From Pyrinomonadales bacterium (lineage in GTDB: Bacteria; Acidobacteriota; Blastocatellia; Pyrinomonadales; Pyrinomonadaceae): 64,000 nucleotides of DNA. Made by a program: the position numbers and the translations under genes. The notes beneath the pieces were generated by a model. That model was not told where the DNA came from, did no database searches, and worked only from the letters and a program-made list of their open reading frames with translations. Below are positions 25,941 through 41,696 of the stretch, in pieces (positions within the stretch are counted from its first letter, which is position 1; each line of letters opens with the position of its first letter). Where the stretch lies: contig JBBSGG010000005.1 of NCBI GenBank assembly GCA_038254305.1, positions 13,044 through 77,043 of the forward strand, given 5' to 3'.

Positions 25941-26031
<91 letters not shown>

Positions 26032-26039
26032 GTAGTTTT

Positions 26040-26130
26040 GGAAAGGTGCAAGAGCGGTTGAATTGGCAGCATTGGAAATGCTGTGAACCTCAAAAGGGTT
26101 CCGTGGGTTCGAATCCCACCCTTTCCGCCA
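26040..26130 (+). tRNA. tRNA-Ser (anticodon GGA)
   Basis: Acceptor GGAAAGG/CCTTTCC, anticodon loop TT-GGA-AA, long variable arm, same T-arm as the first tRNA-Ser, encoded CCA. Confidence 0.9.
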
Positions 26131-28272: not shown

Positions 28273-29133
28273 ATGATCGTAACGCCGTGGTTCGCAAAAC
28301 TTAGATATTCGTTCGCCCTCGGGCTGGCCGTTCTTCTCGCCGGTGCCGCGGCGGCCCAATCTCCGGCGACCGAATCTCCGCTGCCTGCACCGACCGGTTT
28401 TATTAACGATTACGCCGGCGTCCTCGACGCGTCGACAAAACAGGCACTCGAAACAAAGCTCACCGATTTTAAGGCAAAAAGCTCGCCGTCTACAGAACTC
28501 GCGGTCGCGATCATCAAAACTACAGGCGACCGTCCGATCTTCGACTATTCACTTGCGGTCGCACGCGGCTGGAAGATCGGTTCAAAACTCGACGATAACC
28601 CGAGTGCACTGCTTTTGATCGCAGTCGACGACCGGAAATATTTCACGCAAGTAAGCCGCGATCTCGAAGACGAACTTCCCGACGGTCTCGTCGGCAGTTT
28701 GCAGCGGCAATATCTTGTTCCCGAATTCAAACAGGCAAATTACGCGAAAGGCGTCTCGGACACGATCGACGCGTACATTCGTACGATCGGGGAGCGGCGT
28801 GCCGGCGGTCCTCAGCCCGCTTTCTCGGCGACACCGGTTCCAACGGGCGGACGGCAAGGTCAACAGTCGTTCCCAAGTCTCCTGTGCTGCCTCGGTGTCG
28901 GCATTCTGCTCGCATTTATCTTTATCTCAAGAATGGGCCGAGGCGGCCGCGGCGGTGGTGGCGGTGGCCTGGGCAGCGCCCTGCCGTGGATAATCGGTTC
29001 GATGATCGCAAATTCCGGCAGCTCGTCGGGCGGCTGGGGCGGCGGCGGCGGCGGCAGCGGTGGCAGTGGAGGCTTCGGCGGTTTCGGCGGCGGCGGCGAT
29101 TTCGGCGGAGGCGGAGCCGGCGGCAGTTGGTAA
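28273..29133 (+). CDS. TPM-domain (YgcG-like) protein with TM segment and Gly-rich tail
   Basis: Signal peptide. FINDYAGVLD...ELAVAIIKTT...LLLIAVDDRKYF is typical of the TPM phosphatase-like domain. C-terminal GGGGSGG low complexity. Confidence 0.75.
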   Translation: MIVTPWFAKLRYSFALGLAVLLAGAAAAQSPATESPLPAPTGFINDYAGVLDASTKQALETKLTDFKAKSSPSTELAVAIIKTTGDRPIFDYSLAVARGWKIGSKLDDNPSALLLIAVDDRKYFTQVSRDLEDELPDGLVGSLQRQYLVPEFKQANYAKGVSDTIDAYIRTIGERRAGGPQPAFSATPVPTGGRQGQQSFPSLLCCLGVGILLAFIFISRMGRGGRGGGGGGLGSALPWIIGSMIANSGSSSGGWGGGGGGSGGSGGFGGFGGGGDFGGGGAGGSW

Positions 29134-30601: not shown

Positions 30602-30631
30602 CGACGGTTTGCAAACGTCCGAAACGCGAAA

Positions 30632-30658
30632 AGGCGCCTGTCCATCAGGCGCCTTTTT
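30632..30658. terminator. Bidirectional intrinsic terminator (LemA on one side, microcompartment operon on the other)
   Basis: aggcgcctg-tccat-caggcgcct stem, flanked by an A-run upstream and T5 downstream. Confidence 0.85.
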
Positions 30659-30698
30659 AATTTGTATTTCCCTATCTCAAGCAACGTGCAGGTTTCAT

Positions 30699-31016
30699 TT
30701 AAAACCCGCGCGAGCTGCACATTGAGCAGTGATCACACGGCTTGCCGTTCGGCTCGAACGTGCAGGCCTTTTCTTTTTGAAAGCCCTCAAAGATCTCGTC
30801 GGCGATCGCTTCAGCAACGGAGAATTTATCCTGAGAAGGATGTTCCGGCTTTATCGTTGGAACCTGTATTTTGGTTTCCGCGATCGATCGTTCGATCCGC
30901 TCGAGGCGCGCGTTGAGTTCCGCGATGCTCGTTTCGAGCGAGTTCGGCGACGGCGACGCATCTCGAAGCAGGTTCGCGATCTTTTGAGCTATATCTTCGG
31001 GTGAGTACTGCGACAT
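30699..31016 (-). CDS. Hypothetical BMC-operon protein: N-terminal amphipathic helix, coiled coil, C-terminal Cys cluster
   Basis: The ATG at 31016 lies 1 nt after the stop of the upstream BMC-P gene. MSQYSPEDIAQKIANLLRD is followed by a Pro/Ser linker. C-terminus is C-x8-C-x2-C-x2-C (CTFEPNGKPCDHCSMC). Confidence 0.5.
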   Translation of the reverse strand: MSQYSPEDIAQKIANLLRDASPSPNSLETSIAELNARLERIERSIAETKIQVPTIKPEHPSQDKFSVAEAIADEIFEGFQKEKACTFEPNGKPCDHCSMCSSRGF

Positions 31017-31017
31017 C

Positions 31018-31299
31018 TTACTGTGCGGGAAGAAGATCGATGTAATCGACAACGCCGACGATCGCGGAATCGATGGCTGCGCCGGCTTTTCCAGTCGCCG
31101 CCGTTGATGCTGACCAGCCTTCCTGAGCGATCACGACGAGATCGCCTTCGCCCGCGCTGACCGAATCGAGAGCCAGACAGGTGTAATCCATGTCGTCGCC
31201 TTCAGGCGTTACCTGCCGGCAAAGCATGATGCGCGAGCCTTCGTAACGCTGATTCTTTTGCGTTGCGACGACATTTCCGATGACACGGGCAAGAAGCAT
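31018..31299 (-). CDS. BMC-P pentameric vertex protein (EutN/CcmL family), paralogue 3
   Basis: Trimmed to the ATG at 31299. MLLARVIGNVVATQK...AIVGVVDYIDL fits the EutN/CcmL fold. Confidence 0.85.
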   Translation of the reverse strand: MLLARVIGNVVATQKNQRYEGSRIMLCRQVTPEGDDMDYTCLALDSVSAGEGDLVVIAQEGWSASTAATGKAGAAIDSAIVGVVDYIDLLPAQ

Positions 31300-31330: not shown

Positions 31331-31612
31331 TCACCGTTCGCCGTTAAAAACGTGGCTGTCGGAATCGATGATCCCGACGATGGTGCAGTCGGTCGGCGTT
31401 TCATCACGTTTGAACGGAAACGACGCCTCCTTTCCGCGGCACCAGAAAACGAGTTCGCCCACTCCCGCTCCGACGGCGTCGAGCGCTATAGTCGGCTTCC
31501 CTTTCGGCTTAAGCTTGGCGTCAAGCGTCTGAACGAGTAGAAACGTTCTTCCCTCAAGAGCTTCGTTCTTGACCGAGGAAACTACCGTTCCGATGACGCG
31601 TGCGATCTGCAT
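31331..31612 (-). CDS. BMC-P pentameric vertex protein (EutN/CcmL family), paralogue 2
   Basis: Trimmed to the ATG at 31612. MQIARVIGTVVSSVKNEALEG...DAVGAGVGELV...TIVGIID. Confidence 0.85.
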   Translation of the reverse strand: MQIARVIGTVVSSVKNEALEGRTFLLVQTLDAKLKPKGKPTIALDAVGAGVGELVFWCRGKEASFPFKRDETPTDCTIVGIIDSDSHVFNGER

Positions 31613-31620
31613 TGTCGGAT

Positions 31621-31902
31621 CTATTTGGCTTCGTCCCGAACGAAATCGATCTCGTCGATGACGCCGATAATGGCGGCGTCGACTGGGCAATCCTTGTTTC
31701 CCTCGGCAAGCCGCGCGGACGAACCGCTGACGACGATGACCTTTTCGTGAAAACCGGCGCCGACCGTATCGACGGCCACGGTGTAGCCCGATTGATCGCT
31801 GCCGTCAAGATTGACGGGCTTAACGATCAAAAGTTTCTTGCCGTGCAGGCGTTCGTCTTTTTGAGTGGAAACGACGGTGCCGAGTATTCGTCCGATTATC
31901 AT
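31621..31902 (-). CDS. BMC-P pentameric vertex protein (EutN/CcmL family), paralogue 1
   Basis: MIIGRILGTVVSTQKDERLHGKKLLIV...DTVGAGFHEKVIV...AIIGVIDEID. Confidence 0.88.
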   Translation of the reverse strand: MIIGRILGTVVSTQKDERLHGKKLLIVKPVNLDGSDQSGYTVAVDTVGAGFHEKVIVVSGSSARLAEGNKDCPVDAAIIGVIDEIDFVRDEAK

Positions 31903-31982: not shown

Positions 31983-32261
31983 TTATTTCATTACTATCGG
32001 CAATGCTTCGTCGACGCTGGCATGAGGACGCGGAATGACGTGTACGCTGACGAGTTCGCCGACACGGCGGGCTGCGGCGGCACCGGCATCGGTTGCGGCT
32101 TTGACGGCGGCAACGTCGCCACGGACGATCGCGGTCACAAAACCGGCGCCGATCTTTTCATAGCCAACAAGCTGCACGTTCGCGGCCTTGACCATTGCGT
32201 CGGCGGCCTCGATCATCGCGACCAGGCCCTTACATTCAACCATTCCTAATGCTTCCTGCAT
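31983..32261 (-). CDS. BMC-H hexameric shell protein (PduA/EutM/CcmK-like)
   Basis: [60 protein letters not shown] is near-canonical PduA-type sequence. Confidence 0.92.
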
Positions 32262-32348: not shown

Positions 32349-33146
32349 CTAATTTCGAAGTGCGTCAGCTTTGACCAGCAGCTCGATCAATTCTTCGCGC
32401 GTGAGCGAGAGTTTGGTGCCGTTTGACGGCGGCATCGTCATCGCGGTCGAGCCACATTTTATGCCGTTGTCGTGCAGGTATCCGCAGGCCTGGCAACGCG
32501 CCGTTTCGGTGAGATAACCTGCCTTTTCGCGTATATTTATAAGCTTTTCGATGGCGTCCGCCGGCAAATCGGTCGCTCCGCCCAGTGCTTTTGCTAGTAT
32601 CGCGATCTTCGCCGTATGCTCAAGCGTCTCCAGTCGGTCAAACGCCTGCCAAAGGTCCTCGCCATAGGCGACAGCACCGTGATTCGCCATCAAAAGTGCG
32701 TTGTGATGCTTTATGAACGGACGCATCGCCTGAGTCAATTCATCGGTTGACGGTGTGCCGTAATCGGTCAGTGGAACGCAGCCGAGCGTCAGGATCACTT
32801 CGGACAGAATAGGTTTGTCGATCGCCAGGCCGGCGACCGCAAATGCCGTCCCGTGGGGCGGATGTGCGTGGCAAACGGCTTTGATGTCGGGCCGCTCCTT
32901 ATAGATCAGAAGGTGCATCGACAGCTCGGATGACGCCTTTTTGTCGGTCAGCGAATTCCCGTCCATGTCCGTAACGGCGAGCGAATCTTCGGTCATGCGG
33001 CCTTTGCAAGTCATGGTCGGCGTGGCCAAAATGCGGTCTTCGCCGATCCGAACGCTGACATTCCCATCGGACGAAACGACATAGCTGCGGTCGTAAAGCA
33101 AACGGCCTATTTCGCAGATCAGTTTACGGGCTTCGAGTTCGTTCAT
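32349..33146 (-). CDS. Class II aldolase (L-fuculose/rhamnulose-phosphate aldolase-like) with C-terminal encapsulation-peptide-like extension
   Basis: Trimmed to the ATG at 33146. Zn/catalytic residues are in conserved context: SSELSMHLLIY (Glu), CHAHPPHGTAF (His-x-His) and LMANHGAVAYG (His). An extra tail of about 55 aa ends in LSLTREELIELLVKADALRN. Confidence 0.85.
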   Translation of the reverse strand: MNELEARKLICEIGRLLYDRSYVVSSDGNVSVRIGEDRILATPTMTCKGRMTEDSLAVTDMDGNSLTDKKASSELSMHLLIYKERPDIKAVCHAHPPHGTAFAVAGLAIDKPILSEVILTLGCVPLTDYGTPSTDELTQAMRPFIKHHNALLMANHGAVAYGEDLWQAFDRLETLEHTAKIAILAKALGGATDLPADAIEKLINIREKAGYLTETARCQACGYLHDNGIKCGSTAMTMPPSNGTKLSLTREELIELLVKADALRN

Positions 33147-33154
33147 AAGAAAGA

Positions 33155-33198
33155 AACCACAGATTAACACATCATTGAATGTGCATTAACCTGTGGTT
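33155..33198 (-). promoter_or_regulatory. 44-nt imperfect palindrome/hairpin immediately upstream of the aldolase start
   Basis: aaccacag ... ctgtggtt outer arms with a partly complementary interior. On the minus strand it is followed by tttctttctt, then the ATG. It could be a terminator of the upstream gene, an attenuator or an operator. Confidence 0.45.
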
Positions 33199-33219: not shown

Positions 33220-33522
33220 TTACCTGATGCGTTCGAACCGCGATGCTCGCGGCGGAGGCGGCGGTGCGTCAGGAACTTCCGGAACATCAAATTCTCCGGC
33301 TTCGAGTTTGTGCATCTGCAGCTGGTGGCGCAGCATTTCGTTCTCGGTCCGAAGTTGATCGTTTTCCATCCGCATCTGCTGCATCTCAGCCCTGCGACCG
33401 TTACGATTTCGGCTCGGCAGCGACGGCAGCGAGAGAGAAACAAAGAAACTGGCGAGGAAAAGCCCGGCGGCAAATGTCACAAGAAAGGGGACAAAACGCT
33501 TGAGCAAACCGATGTACATCAT
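33220..33522 (-). CDS. Hypothetical membrane-anchored coiled-coil protein with Pro-rich tail
   Basis: N-terminal TM helix (FVPFLVTFAAGLFLASFFVSL), heptad-like EMQQMRMENDQLRTENEMLRHQLQM, and PPPPP near the C-terminus. Confidence 0.45.
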   Translation of the reverse strand: MMYIGLLKRFVPFLVTFAAGLFLASFFVSLSLPSLPSRNRNGRRAEMQQMRMENDQLRTENEMLRHQLQMHKLEAGEFDVPEVPDAPPPPPRASRFERIR

Positions 33523-40134: not shown

Positions 40135-40890
40135 ATGTCATCAACCGTAATAGAAAAGGATAGCCGAAGGATCCAGCGATATGAACTCGCCCTGCCTGTC
40201 CGCGTCGAAGTTCAGATCGATAACGCCTTCGCGTGGAATGAGATAACCAGGCTTGAGGATATTTCGGCCTTCGGTGCGGGTTTTCGCCTAAAGCGGCCCG
40301 TAAAACGCGGCCGACTGCTCGTGATGAGCGTCCCGATGCCGCGGCAGCTTCGCTGCTATGACTATCTTGAGCCTCAGTACAGGGTTTGGGGACTGGTGCG
40401 TCGCTGTGTGTCGATCGATGCAGCCGACGCCGAAGAAAGCTACGCCGTCGGCGTTGCGTTCATCGGAAAAAATGCTCCGCAAAGTTATAACGAAAATCCG
40501 TCTAAACTCTACGATCTGTCGACTCGCGAAGACGGAGGCCTGTGGCAGCTCGTCGATGCAAATCCGGATCCGGACGAGGTCGATCTGCCCGCGTACCTTC
40601 GCCGACATACGCGGTTTGCGATCCCGGAATCGCTGCTTCTCGAGCTTTTGGACCAAAAAGGCGATATCGCCGCCAGCGAGGTCAGCGTCACGGAAAACCT
40701 GAGCCTGGGAGGCGCTTCGGTTTTTACTTCGTTCAACGTCAACATTGGAACGTTTTTGAGGGTCAGCAGCGAACGTCACGACCTGACGATTATTTCTATC
40801 GTCCGCGGCAAACATTTGGGCCCGGACGGCATTATTCGTCTTCATATTGAGTTTATCGATCGGCTGTTCCCGCTTGAAGGCATCGAATAG
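40135..40890 (+). CDS. Tandem PilZ-domain protein (two apparently canonical c-di-GMP binding motif sets)
   Basis: Domain 1 has RRIQR (RxxxR) and DISAFG (DxSxxG). Domain 2 has RRHTR and NLSLGG. Confidence 0.7.
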   Translation: MSSTVIEKDSRRIQRYELALPVRVEVQIDNAFAWNEITRLEDISAFGAGFRLKRPVKRGRLLVMSVPMPRQLRCYDYLEPQYRVWGLVRRCVSIDAADAEESYAVGVAFIGKNAPQSYNENPSKLYDLSTREDGGLWQLVDANPDPDEVDLPAYLRRHTRFAIPESLLLELLDQKGDIAASEVSVTENLSLGGASVFTSFNVNIGTFLRVSSERHDLTIISIVRGKHLGPDGIIRLHIEFIDRLFPLEGIE

Positions 40891-40943
40891 GCCACGTTGG
40901 ATCATTTGAGAGTATTATCTACATGGGAGTTTCCGGAGGAACA

Positions 40944-41696
40944 ATGTCAGCCAGTACCGAATTGCTCAAGCGTAGAGCCGATCTTACTTCGATGTCCTTA
41001 TATTCCGTTGTAAAAGTTAAGGAAGATGCCGACAACTTCTGGAAGGAGGTGGCTGATGTGATCAGCATTTCCGCGAGCGGCGCCGGATTTTTGCTTCCTC
41101 GTCCTTGCGAAGTAGGACGACTCGTTTCGCTTATGATGCCGATGCCGGCAAACCTCCGCAGTTACGATCAGGACAAAGAGCTTTATCGTGTCTGGGGACT
41201 AGTCCAGCACTGCAACGAAACGAAGGCGGAGGATGCTAATGGGTTTCAGGTAGGCGTCGCGTTCGTCGGTAAGAATCCTCCCGAGAGTTATTTCGTCGAC
41301 CCGGCAACCAACTACAAGATCTGCGGGATGACCGAGGAAGGTCTGTGGAAGATCACGGAAGCAAAAGGATCGTTCAAGAAGCGTCAGCACATGCGTTACT
41401 GGACGAAGATCGATCTTTATCTGGCTCTGGTTGACGGTAAGAAAGATGCGATCCGCGGCGAAAGGACCGTCACCGAAAACATCAGCCGCAGCGGCGCGGC
41501 GGTAATAACCACGCTCGATGTCAACGTCGGCGATCGTGTGAAGTTTATCAGCGAGAAATACGATTTTTCCGGACTTGCGGTGGTCTGCAACAGACAAGAG
41601 GGCGACGATAAACGCTCGCGTCTGCATCTGCAGTTTGTCGATTCGGCGTTTCCCATCGACGGGCTCGACCTCGACGCAAACGCGATCAGCGACTAA
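40944..41696 (+). CDS. Tandem PilZ-domain protein, paralogue (N-terminal domain degenerate)
   Basis: I prefer the ATG at 40944 because it is preceded by GGAGG. Domain 1 lacks RxxxR and has SISASG. Domain 2 has RQHMR and NISRSG. It is collinear with its neighbour (MPMP..LR.YD....YRVWGLV..C). Confidence 0.65.
   Translation: MSASTELLKRRADLTSMSLYSVVKVKEDADNFWKEVADVISISASGAGFLLPRPCEVGRLVSLMMPMPANLRSYDQDKELYRVWGLVQHCNETKAEDANGFQVGVAFVGKNPPESYFVDPATNYKICGMTEEGLWKITEAKGSFKKRQHMRYWTKIDLYLALVDGKKDAIRGERTVTENISRSGAAVITTLDVNVGDRVKFISEKYDFSGLAVVCNRQEGDDKRSRLHLQFVDSAFPIDGLDLDANAISD

What the first reader, a model, noticed from the sequence alone, without database searches (positions are those of the whole stretch)
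30699..31016. Uncharacterised terminal gene of the BMC operon: amphipathic N-helix, coiled coil and a C-x8-C-x2-C-x2-C tail
- **Coupling:** the ATG lies 1 nt after the stop of the last BMC-P gene, suggesting translational coupling.
- **N-terminus:** SPEDIAQKIANLLRD followed by a Pro/Ser linker has the form of an N-terminal encapsulation peptide.
- **Middle:** LETSIAELNARLERIERSIAETK is coiled-coil-like.
- **C-terminus:** CTFEPNGKPCDHCSMCSSRGF carries four Cys plus a His in a spacing that could bind a metal or Fe-S centre.
- **Related feature:** the aldolase tail also contains a Cys triad (CQAC...KC) just before its own helix.
- I do not recognise this protein as a known BMC component. It could be a scaffold, redox or assembly factor.
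Basis: partly seen in the sequence, partly recalled or inferred. Interest (0 to 1): 0.65.

Follow-up and report, generated by a model that had tools for sequence, protein, structure and literature searches.

The report
Small cysteine-rich protein of Acidobacteria microcompartments
The last gene of a bacterial-microcompartment operon in a soil Acidobacterium encodes a real 105-residue protein (targeting-type helix, probable trimer-forming coiled coil, four-cysteine metal-binding tail) that accompanies the shell genes wherever the contigs allow a check; the family was mentioned once in a 2021 catalogue and its function is still unknown.

Summary
A minus-strand CDS at 30699-31016 starts 1 nt after the stop of the third BMC-P gene. 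It encodes an amphipathic N-terminal helix, a heptad coiled coil and a C-x8-C-x2-C-x2-C tail.

It is a real gene under strong purifying selection. About 1,500 homologues (90%-identity clusters) were found, and 511 species-level genomes encode a relative; the 80 best loci are all Acidobacteriota.

The four Cys, the Asp after Cys2 and the terminal Gly-Phe are essentially invariant. The His is present in only about 90% of members.

Gene order is always aldolase II, BMC-H, three BMC-P, then this gene. This held in 80 of 80 target-seeded loci and in 23 of 23 informative aldolase-seeded loci.

New here:
- The coiled coil carries the R-h-x-x-h-E trimerisation motif in the correct register.
- Long (140-217 aa) and short (70-86 aa) forms exist.
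- The protein is never fused to an enzyme.
- It has no Pfam, NCBIfam, PDB or Foldseek relative.

It is not unknown. Sutter et al. 2021 (ACI locus type) mention a short protein with an N-terminal encapsulation peptide and conserved cysteines.

Most likely it is a lumen-targeted, trimeric adaptor with a metal-stabilised head. A redox or Fe-S role is the main rival. Function is inferred, not shown.

The parts
30699..31016 (-). CDS of the small Cys-rich BMC protein (105 aa plus stop)
   Evidence: Translation. About 1,500 homologues. Codon-position pattern of purifying selection.
30957..31001 (-). Helix 1 (residues 6-20), an amphipathic encapsulation-peptide-like helix with family motif L-A-E-K-I-A-R-L-L
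   Evidence: AlphaFold2 helix. Hydrophobic moment 0.66, reached by 0.3% of shuffles. The motif is conserved in short and long forms.
30873..30947 (-). Helix 2 (residues 24-48), a three-heptad coiled coil with core residues L27, I31, L34, L38, I41 and I45
   Evidence: AlphaFold2 helix. Heptad register. Weak PDB profile hit to the coronin-1A trimeric coiled coil, E = 0.13.
30891..30908 (-). R37-L38-E39-R40-I41-E42, the R(g)-h(a)-x-x-h(d)-E(e) trimerisation motif
   Evidence: R37 invariant and L38, E42 at least 90% conserved in A1. [RK]-h-x-x-h-E occurs in 330 of 367 members, and the R form in 207 against 2.3% of shuffles. The motif is defined in PMC3653964.
30843..30872 (-). Variable Pro-rich linker (residues 49-58), expanded to 60-100 residues in long-form relatives
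   Evidence: Alignment A1. Long-form sequences. Low pLDDT.
30702..30842 (-). Conserved C-terminal module (residues 59-105): H-P-S, an amphipathic helix at 61-80, then the Cys4 knuckle
   Evidence: Alignments A1 and A2. AlphaFold2 domain model with pLDDT about 80 over the Cys region.
30717..30764 (-). C85-x8-C94-D-H-C97-x2-C100, the putative Cys4 metal or Fe-S site
   Evidence: The Cys are invariant or nearly so (C85, C94, C97 invariant; C100 invariant in A1, at least 90% in A2) and the Asp is invariant. Family tail statistics. TGT and TGC are both used.
30628..30658 (.). GC-rich hairpin flanked by an A-run and a T-run, a likely bidirectional terminator between this gene and the convergent LemA gene
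31018..31299 (-). BMC-P (third of the triplet); its stop lies 1 nt before the target ATG
   Evidence: PF03319, E = 3.8e-20. Sequence.
31331..31612 (-). BMC-P (second of the triplet)
   Evidence: PF03319, E = 1.5e-29.
31621..31902 (-). BMC-P (first of the triplet)
   Evidence: PF03319, E = 1.1e-30.
31983..32261 (-). BMC-H shell hexamer protein
   Evidence: PF00936, E = 1.4e-30.
32349..33170 (-). Class II aldolase with a C-terminal extension. The true start is probably the ATG at 33146.
   Evidence: PF00596, E = 2.1e-48. Alignment A3.
32454..32495 (-). Aldolase tail Cys triad C226-x2-C229-x9-C239 (RCQACGYLH...C)
   Evidence: Conserved in 67 of 67 aldolase tails and in long-form lineages.
32358..32417 (-). 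Aldolase C-terminal helix (KLSLTREELIELLVKADAL), the encapsulation peptide described for ACI aldolases
   Evidence: Described in Sutter et al. 2021.

Best explanation
**What it is**
The gene encodes the sixth, invariably linked component of the core operon of the Acidobacteria-specific 'ACI' bacterial microcompartment. That operon is aldolase II, BMC-H, three BMC-P, then this gene.

The protein is modular:
1. An N-terminal amphipathic helix of the encapsulation-peptide type.
2. A three-heptad coiled coil carrying the R-h-x-x-h-E motif, which specifies parallel trimers.
3. A variable flexible linker.
4. A 47-residue C-terminal module whose four invariant Cys hold a metal ion. Most simply this is a structural Zn or Fe in a knuckle-plus-helix fold.

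**Proposed mechanism (inferred)**
- The protein trimerises.
- Its three targeting helices dock on the luminal face of the shell.
- Its three metal-stabilised heads bind a conserved ACI-specific partner. Candidates are the Cys-bearing aldolase tail and the satellite aldehyde dehydrogenase.
- It would therefore act as a multivalent shell-to-cargo adaptor or nucleator, with the logic of CcmN in beta-carboxysomes.

**Shown**
- The gene is real and under purifying selection.
- The motifs are invariant across the family.
- Linkage to the BMC genes is obligatory in the data examined.

**Inferred**
- Encapsulation, trimer state, metal identity and binding partner.
For: - **Reality and selection.** About 1,500 homologues. 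Third-codon-position differences are about five times those at positions 1 and 2 in the tail.
- **Linkage, target-seeded.** All 80 genome loci show the same gene order wherever the contig extends far enough, despite insertions at three different positions.
- **Linkage, divergent lineages.** Divergent long-form lineages have different downstream neighbours and a Rex-like gene upstream, yet keep the order. A divergent 82-aa form also follows a BMC-P triplet.
- **Linkage, reverse test.** Starting from the aldolase, 23 of 23 informative loci have the gene, and none with room lacks it.
- **Targeting helix.** Hydrophobic moment 0.66. The phi-A-E-[KR]-phi-A motif is conserved in both forms. The same reading is given in Sutter et al. 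2021.
- **Trimer motif.** R37(g)-L38(a)-x-x-I41(d)-E42(e) sits in register with six hydrophobic core positions. [RK]-h-x-x-h-E occurs in 90% of members. Some members give weak hits to Pfam Trimer_CC and the profile gives a weak hit to the coronin-1A coiled coil. The rule is from PMC3653964.
- **Head as a binding surface.** Not only the Cys but about 15 non-ligand residues and the free C-terminal Gly-Phe are near-invariant. That is more than a bare metal site needs. AlphaFold2 places C85 and C94 on a hairpin and C97 and C100 in the first turn of a short helix, as in mononuclear Cys4 knuckles.
- **No enzyme context.** The module is never fused to an enzyme, and only 188 clusters at 50% identity were found among 1.84 billion representative proteins.
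Against: - No experiment or expression data were obtained. No RNA runs were found.
- AlphaFold2 confidence is modest: pLDDT 69.5 for the full protein and 72 for the domain, with pTM 0.25-0.33.
- The C-x2-C-x2-C spacing is also typical of Fe-S cluster ligation, so a redox role is not excluded.
- Short forms lack a separate helix 1, so the 'encapsulation peptide' and the coiled coil may be one element.
- No partner has been identified.
- Co-variation between this tail and the aldolase tail is confounded by phylogeny.
Confidence: 0.4

Rival explanations
1. It is an encapsulated redox or electron-transfer protein. The four Cys bind a [4Fe-4S], [2Fe-2S] or rubredoxin-type Fe centre that shuttles electrons inside the lumen, for example for cofactor recycling or towards a PduS/PduT-type conduit.
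For: - The C-x2-C-x2-C motif plus a remote Cys is a classic Fe-S ligand set, and all four Cys are invariant or nearly so.
- The invariant Asp and the common His next to Cys2 could tune a cluster.
- Sutter et al. 2021 note PduS/PduT pairs in some ACI genomes and suggest metal binding matters for this locus type.
- This operon has no alcohol dehydrogenase for NAD+ recycling, and none was found among the large ORFs scanned in the window.
- Long-form lineages place a Rex-like redox regulator upstream.
Against: - There is no match to any ferredoxin, rubredoxin or other Fe-S family in Pfam, NCBIfam, PDB sequences or Foldseek.
- The motif lacks the ferredoxin C-x3-C-P signature and the rubredoxin C-x2-C-G knuckles.
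- No flavoprotein or other redox partner lies in the conserved operon.
- The aldolase chemistry is not redox.
Confidence: 0.3
2. It is a thiol or zinc redox switch, or a metallochaperone. In the first case the Cys4-Zn site releases metal or forms disulfides on oxidation, so that core assembly is gated by redox state. In the second case it supplies Zn to the Zn-dependent class II aldolase inside the shell.
For: - Two proteins of the same operon carry conserved Cys clusters next to their targeting helices.
- Class II aldolases are Zn enzymes; this is established knowledge of the PF00596 family.
- A Rex-like regulator sits upstream in sister lineages.
Against: - This is purely inferential, and no family-level similarity to known Zn switches such as Hsp33 or RsrA was found.
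- The strict conservation of non-Cys residues and of the C-terminal Gly-Phe is not explained.
Confidence: 0.15
3. It is a ribosomally synthesised peptide precursor (SCIFF or ranthipeptide-like) whose Cys-rich C-terminus is the modified core.
For: - The ORF is small.
- The N-terminal half is variable and the Cys-rich C-terminal 24 residues are near-invariant.
Against: - No radical-SAM or other maturase, protease or exporter is present in the conserved operon in any of the 80 and more loci.
- Instead the gene is strictly linked to shell genes.
- The N-terminal half has its own conserved structural motifs.
Confidence: 0.03

Closest known systems
Unnamed small protein of the ACI-type BMC locus (Sutter et al. 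2021, Nat Commun 12:3809, Supplementary Data 2)
   Same: - Acidobacteria-only distribution.
- Sits in the main locus with a PF00596 aldolase that has a C-terminal encapsulation peptide, a BMC-H and a BMC-P triplet.
- Short protein with an N-terminal encapsulation-peptide-like helix, conserved Cys in the C-terminal domain and no known homologues.
   Different: - The catalogue gives about 80 aa and three conserved Cys. This protein is 105 aa and the family has four invariant Cys.
- The family also includes 70-86 aa and 140-217 aa forms.
- No accession could be cross-checked, so identity rests on the description.
CcmN, the beta-carboxysome adaptor with a C-terminal encapsulation peptide
   Same: - A non-enzymatic protein.
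- One end is an amphipathic shell-binding helix on a flexible linker and the other end binds core components.
- Encoded next to shell genes.
   Different: - No sequence or fold relationship.
- CcmN uses a hexapeptide-repeat domain and has no Cys4 site or trimer motif.
- The helix is C-terminal in CcmN and N-terminal here.
Short parallel trimeric coiled coils with the R-h-x-x-h-E motif (coronin-1A, ccbeta, cortexillin variants)
   Same: Arg at g, hydrophobic residues at a and d, and Glu at e, within a coiled coil of about three heptads. The profile gives a weak hit to 2akf.
   Different: - The resemblance is an analogous motif, not homology.
- The oligomeric state is untested here.
Fe-S elements of microcompartments (PduS, the PduT pore cluster, the PduK C-terminal motif)
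   Same: Cys-based metal centres associated with BMCs. PduS/PduT pairs are reported in some ACI genomes.
   Different: - No sequence similarity.
- Those centres sit in a flavoprotein or in shell proteins, not in a free protein of about 100 aa with a targeting helix.
Mononuclear Cys4 knuckles (zinc ribbon, treble clef, rubredoxin)
   Same: Four Cys within 16 residues, with the predicted hairpin-plus-helix-N-terminus ligand geometry.
   Different: - The spacing C-x8-C-x2-C-x2-C matches none of their signatures.
- No Pfam or Foldseek match.

Membership tests
ACI-type BMC main locus (Sutter et al. 2021) | Found in Acidobacteria only | tested here: met
   511 species genomes encode a relative. The 80 best loci are all titled Acidobacteriota, Pyrinomonadaceae, Blastocatellia or Chloracidobacterium, apart from one MAG titled only 'bacterium' (L027).
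ACI-type BMC main locus (Sutter et al. 2021) | PF00596 class II aldolase with a C-terminal encapsulation peptide | tested here: met
   PF00596, E = 2.1e-48. A conserved C-terminal ...SFTREELIELL... helix follows a linker.
ACI-type BMC main locus (Sutter et al. 2021) | Adjacent BMC-P triplet plus at least one BMC-H | tested here: met
   Three PF03319 genes and one PF00936 gene. The same order is seen in every locus whose contig extends far enough.
ACI-type BMC main locus (Sutter et al. 2021) | Hydroxyacid dehydrogenase (PF00389/PF02826) in the main locus. This is described as a typical component, not as a classifier. | tested here: not met
   It is absent from the operon and from 30 larger ORFs scanned across the 64-kb window. 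It is also absent from the related loci L001, L002, L085 and L086. This is therefore a reduced core version of the described locus.
ACI-type BMC main locus (Sutter et al. 2021) | Aldehyde dehydrogenase on a satellite locus | not testable with these tools
   No PF00171 protein was found among the large ORFs scanned in the window. That is consistent with the feature, but the rest of the genome is not available.
ACI small Cys protein with an encapsulation peptide (Sutter et al. 2021, Supplementary Data 2) | Very short protein (about 80 aa) with no known homologues | tested here: met
   This protein is 105 aa and family members range from about 70 to 217 aa. There are no Pfam, NCBIfam or PDB hits.
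ACI small Cys protein with an encapsulation peptide (Sutter et al. 2021, Supplementary Data 2) | N-terminal encapsulation peptide | tested here: inconclusive
   An amphipathic N-terminal helix followed by a Pro/Ser linker is present and conserved. Shell binding cannot be tested here.
ACI small Cys protein with an encapsulation peptide (Sutter et al. 2021, Supplementary Data 2) | Three conserved cysteines in the C-terminal domain | tested here: met
   Four conserved Cys, which include a C-x2-C-x2-C triad.
R-h-x-x-h-E parallel trimeric coiled coil | Arg(g)-h(a)-x-x-h(d)-Glu(e) in register with a heptad repeat | tested here: met
   R37-L38-E39-R40-I41-E42 with core residues L27, I31, L34, L38, I41 and I45. 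The motif occurs in 90% of the family when Lys is allowed in place of Arg.
R-h-x-x-h-E parallel trimeric coiled coil | Trimeric state in solution | not testable with these tools
   This needs SEC-MALS, analytical ultracentrifugation or a structure.
Ferredoxin-type [4Fe-4S] or rubredoxin | C-x2-C-x2-C-x3-C-P motif, or two C-x2-C-G knuckles, with a family HMM match | tested here: not met
   The motif is C-x8-C-x2-C-x2-C. No Pfam or NCBIfam hit was found even at E up to 10 across 135 members. Foldseek found nothing.
RiPP precursor (SCIFF or ranthipeptide type) | Adjacent radical-SAM or other maturase | tested here: not met
   No such gene is present in any annotated neighbourhood or in the window operon.

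The most novel reading that the evidence does not exclude
The protein would be a new class of microcompartment core organiser. It would be a trimeric hub whose Cys4 heads form metal or Fe-S centres, possibly shared with or docked to the conserved Cys3 tail of the encapsulated aldolase. Cargo assembly, or electron flow, inside this abundant soil-bacterial organelle would then depend on metal and redox state.
Probability: 0.2. Interest if true: 0.7.

Novelty: new member of a known kind. Interest (0 to 1): 0.45.

Why it matters
- The ACI microcompartment is confined to Acidobacteria, which are among the most abundant soil bacteria, and its substrate and function are unknown.
- This small protein was found with the shell genes in every locus that could be checked, so it is probably essential to how the organelle is built or works.
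- A defined architecture (targeting helix, trimer motif, Cys4 head) gives concrete, cheap experiments.
- If the adaptor idea holds, it also gives a compact natural module for loading cargo into engineered shells.
- If the head binds Fe-S, it would point to redox chemistry inside a metabolosome that lacks the usual alcohol dehydrogenase.

Tried and rejected
- **Pfam and NCBIfam on the protein.** No hits.
- **Pfam on 135 family members at E up to 10.** Only coiled-coil noise and a short, insignificant VG15 match to the Cys stretch.
- **PDB sequence-profile search.** Only coiled-coil hits to the N-terminal half.
- **Structure prediction and fold search.** AlphaFold2 on the full-length protein and on the C-terminal domain with a deeper alignment, then Foldseek against the PDB. 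No match.
- **Fusions of the Cys module to enzymes, such as the extra domain on ACI aldehyde dehydrogenases.** An exhaustive HMM search listed none. The only long hit, 886 aa, matched the coiled-coil region.
- **Expression evidence.** No RNA runs were indexed. One run of unknown type gave fragmentary low-depth contigs, which is uninformative.
- **Cross-check against the 2021 catalogue's supplementary tables by locus tag.** No match.
- **Frameshifted extension of BMC-P.** Rejected, because relatives have intergenic gaps of up to hundreds of nt.
- **Opposite-strand ORFs 30662-30916 and 30729-31004.** Rejected, because the codon-position pattern fits the minus-strand frame.
- **RiPP precursor.** Rejected, because no maturase is present.
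- **Hydrophobic moment as an encapsulation-peptide test.** It is not discriminating, because the aldolase's accepted encapsulation peptide scored low on the same measure.
Full report
**1. What is in the sequence**

The finding lies on the minus strand. The CDS 30699-31016 translates to a 105-residue protein, MSQYSPEDIAQKIANLLRDASPSPNSLETSIAELNARLERIERSIAETKIQVPTIKPEHPSQDKFSVAEAIADEIFEGFQKEKACTFEPNGKPCDHCSMCSSRGF.

A longer ORF from a TTG at 31052 exists. Homologues all begin at the position of this ATG.

Pfam identifies the genes upstream on the same strand:
- three EutN/CcmL pentamer proteins (31018-31299, 31331-31612, 31621-31902);
- one BMC-H (31983-32261);
- a class II aldolase (32349-33170).

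Downstream, a GC-rich hairpin with an A-run on one side and a T-run on the other (30628-30658) separates the gene from a convergent LemA gene. It probably terminates both transcripts. The target is therefore the terminal gene of the operon.

**2. It is a real gene under selection**

A search of 5.8 billion clustered proteins gave 1,513 relatives, nearly all 100-110 aa. A scan of one genome per species found 511 genomes with a relative. The 80 best are all Acidobacteriota: Pyrinomonadaceae, Blastocatellia, Chloracidobacterium and Aridibacter (one MAG is titled only 'bacterium').

Differences across 77 orthologous genes show strong purifying selection on the tail:

| Region | Measure | Count |
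|---|---|---|
| Last 24 codons | differences at codon position 1 | 3,736 |
| Last 24 codons | differences at codon position 2 | 4,240 |
| Last 24 codons | differences at codon position 3 | 22,021 |

TGT and TGC are both used at the Cys codons. This excludes the overlapping plus-strand ORFs and shows that the reading frame is translated. No transcript data could be found.

**3. Anatomy and conservation**

AlphaFold2 predicts helices at 6-20, 24-48 and 61-80, followed by a small hairpin-plus-short-helix knuckle. Mean pLDDT is 69.5 for the full protein. For the C-terminal domain modelled with 135 diverse sequences it is 72, and about 80 over the Cys region.

- **Helix 1.** It is strongly amphipathic: hydrophobic moment 0.66, reached by 0.3% of shuffles. 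Its motif L-A-E-K-I-A-R-L-L is conserved, and recurs as I-A-E-R-V-A-R-R-V in a divergent long form. A Pro/Ser stretch follows. This is the form of a BMC encapsulation peptide, defined as a 15-20-residue terminal amphipathic helix on a flexible linker (PMC8217296, PMC11157265).
- **Helix 2.** It has hydrophobic residues at every a and d position over three heptads: L27, I31, L34, L38, I41 and I45. It contains R37(g)-L38(a)-E39-R40-I41(d)-E42(e). This is the Arg-h-x-x-h-Glu trimerisation motif, which specifies short parallel three-stranded coiled coils, although it also occurs in some dimers (PMC3653964). R37 is invariant and L38 and E42 are at least 90% conserved in alignment A1. Across 367 family members, [RK]-h-x-x-h-E occurs in 330 and the Arg form in 207, against 2.3% of shuffled N-terminal regions. 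The only PDB sequence hits are coiled coils, including the coronin-1A trimer at E = 0.13.
- **Linker.** After a variable linker comes a conserved H-P-S, an amphipathic helix, and the tail E-K-x-C-x2-[ED]-P-x-G-K-P-C-D-H-C-x-M-C-x2-R-G-F.
- **Tail statistics.** Of 367 members selected for having the Cys4 motif at the C-terminus, 365 end in Gly-Phe at the very C-terminus. The first spacing is 8 residues in 351 and 7 in 16. Asp after the second Cys is invariant. His follows in 332 and is otherwise N, Q, K, Y, E, A or S. Conservation of the Cys themselves is shown independently in alignments A1 and A2: C85, C94 and C97 are invariant in both, C100 is invariant in A1 and at least 90% in A2. The ligand set is therefore Cys4, and His is not obligatory.

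**4. Family breadth**

An exhaustive profile search of 1.84 billion representative proteins found only 188 clusters at 50% identity. Lengths run from about 60 to 217 aa, apart from one 886-aa protein that matched only the coiled-coil region, and none shows fusion to an enzyme.

Besides the roughly 105-aa form there are two others:
- **Long forms (140-217 aa).** They have the same helix 1, coiled coil and C-terminal module, but a linker of 60-100 residues rich in Pro and Ser, with a conserved S-P-W-L motif.
- **Short forms (70-86 aa).** A single N-terminal helix leads into the Cys module.

There is no Pfam, NCBIfam, PDB-sequence or Foldseek relative.

**5. Genomic linkage**

In every one of the 80 target-seeded genome loci whose contig extends far enough, the order is aldolase, BMC-H, BMC-P, BMC-P, BMC-P, target. 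Other genes are inserted at variable points:
- a TPR/CarboxypepD_reg protein between the first and second BMC-P;
- a 23S_rRNA_IVP protein before the target;
- a 255-aa protein that looks SPFH-like after the aldolase.

The whole neighbourhood, from RuvA to LemA, is conserved in this clade, so that result alone could be simple inheritance. Three further results make the link stronger:
- Long-form lineages have different downstream genes (DinB-like; ZIP and MraZ) and a Rex-like regulator upstream, yet keep the six-gene order.
- A divergent 82-aa form overlaps the stop of a BMC-P triplet.
- In the reverse test, 80 metagenome contigs were fetched with the aldolase as bait. Of these, 29 reach a third BMC-P and 23 carry the target. 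The other six end within 400 nt of the third BMC-P. None has room for the target and lacks it.

Tight start-stop coupling is not conserved:

| Gap from BMC-P stop to target ATG | Loci (of 75) |
|---|---|
| 10 nt or less, including overlaps | 17 |
| 11-100 nt | 37 |
| over 100 nt | 21 |

**6. The aldolase tail**

All 67 aldolase tails examined carry an invariant R-C-Q-[AS]-C-G-Y-L and a third Cys 9-12 residues later. A linker and the helix ...SFTREELIELL... follow. The pattern is also present in long-form lineages.

Loci whose target tail reads C-P-Y-E-P-T mostly have a non-His residue after G-Y-L in the aldolase (10 of 11). Loci with C-T-F-E-P-N mostly have His. I did not correct this co-variation for phylogeny, so I treat it only as a lead.

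**7. Comparison with what is known**

The operon matches the ACI locus type of Sutter et al. 2021: Acidobacteria only, mainly subdivisions 4 and 6, with a PF00596 aldolase carrying a C-terminal encapsulation peptide, a BMC-P triplet, a BMC-H and a satellite aldehyde dehydrogenase.

[quoted passage not shown] By description this is the same family, so the protein is not an unnoticed component.

The hydroxyacid dehydrogenase listed for ACI is absent from this operon, from the scanned ORFs of the window and from the related loci examined. No aldehyde dehydrogenase was found among the scanned ORFs of the window, consistent with a satellite location. I found no later paper on ACI microcompartments or on this protein.

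**8. How it most likely works**

*Shown:* a translated, strongly constrained, Acidobacteria-restricted protein obligatorily linked to shell genes and the aldolase, with a modular architecture and four essentially invariant Cys.

*Inferred:*
- Helix 1 targets the protein to the luminal shell surface.
- Helix 2 makes a parallel trimer.
- The four Cys hold a metal.
- The head binds a conserved partner.

I favour a trimeric shell-to-cargo adaptor or nucleator with a structural metal site (about 0.4). The reasons are:
- About 15 non-ligand residues and the free C-terminal Gly-Phe are as conserved as the Cys, which suggests a binding surface.
- The predicted ligand geometry is that of mononuclear knuckles.
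- The linker length varies freely, as expected for a tether.
- No redox partner is present in the operon.

The main rival is an encapsulated Fe-S or rubredoxin-like electron carrier (about 0.3). C-x2-C-x2-C plus a remote Cys is a classic cluster-binding set. The operon lacks the usual NAD+-recycling dehydrogenase. A Rex-like regulator and occasional PduS/PduT pairs point to redox themes.

A redox switch or Zn-chaperone role (about 0.15) and a RiPP precursor (about 0.03, with no maturase anywhere) follow.

**9. Verdict**

The claim of an unrecognised component is not right, because the family was noted, uncharacterised, in 2021.

What is added here:
- a four-Cys rather than three-Cys definition;
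- the invariant Asp and the terminal Gly-Phe;
- the trimerisation motif;
- the three length classes;
- a quantitative demonstration of obligatory linkage;
- the absence of any known fold or family relative.

Interest is moderate. This is a well-defined, abundant and experimentally tractable unknown in an organelle whose function is itself unknown.

Noticed in passing
window 33220-33522 (-): A 100-aa ORF encodes an N-terminal transmembrane helix, a Gln/Met/Arg-rich coiled coil and a Pro-rich tail. It sits just upstream of the aldolase on the same strand. A homologue occupies the same place, between RuvA and the aldolase, in most of the 80 related loci. It gave only weak Pfam hits (E 0.008 or worse, all below the gathering cut-offs). 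It may or may not belong to the BMC operon.
   Followed up: partly
L085 6706-7416; L086 6520-7230: In the lineages that carry the long form of the protein, a Rex-like regulator (PF06971 plus PF02629) sits directly upstream of the aldolase, in place of the small membrane protein. This hints that the operon responds to the NADH/NAD+ ratio.
   Followed up: no
window 32454-32495 (-), and the aldolase tails of L001-L082: The aldolase tail carries an invariant RCQ[AS]CGYL...C Cys triad just before its encapsulation helix. The residue after GYL (His or non-His) co-varies with the target tail variant (C-T-F-E-P-N or C-P-Y-E-P-T). This was not corrected for phylogeny.
   Followed up: partly
L001 7904-8899 and 9655-10008; L016 3811-4578; L037 2870-3463; L086 8155-8580: Unrelated genes are inserted at different points inside the otherwise fixed operon in different genomes:
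- a TPR/CarboxypepD_reg protein between BMC-P genes;
- a 23S_rRNA_IVP four-helix protein before the target;
- a 255-aa protein that looks SPFH/band-7-like (not checked against any profile library);
- a further 197-aa ORF of unchecked identity in L037;
- a Clp_N-domain protein.
   Followed up: no
window 33146-33170 (-): The aldolase ORF as listed starts at a GTG at 33170. Homologues begin at the position of the internal Met (MNELEARK...), so the true start is probably the ATG at 33146.
   Followed up: partly
window 25941-26030 and 26040-26130 (+): Two adjacent tRNA-Ser genes (anticodons CGA and GGA) lie between the deaminase gene and dnaX. They explain the spurious minus-strand ORFs listed there.
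   Followed up: yes
window 28273-29133 (+): The TPM-domain protein ends in a long Gly-rich tail (GGRGGGGGGLG...GGWGGGGGGSGGSGGFGGFGGGGDFGGGGAGGSW) after a transmembrane segment.
   Followed up: no
window 40135-40890 and 40923-41696 (+): Two tandem paralogous proteins of about 250 aa each carry a C-terminal PilZ domain.
   Followed up: no
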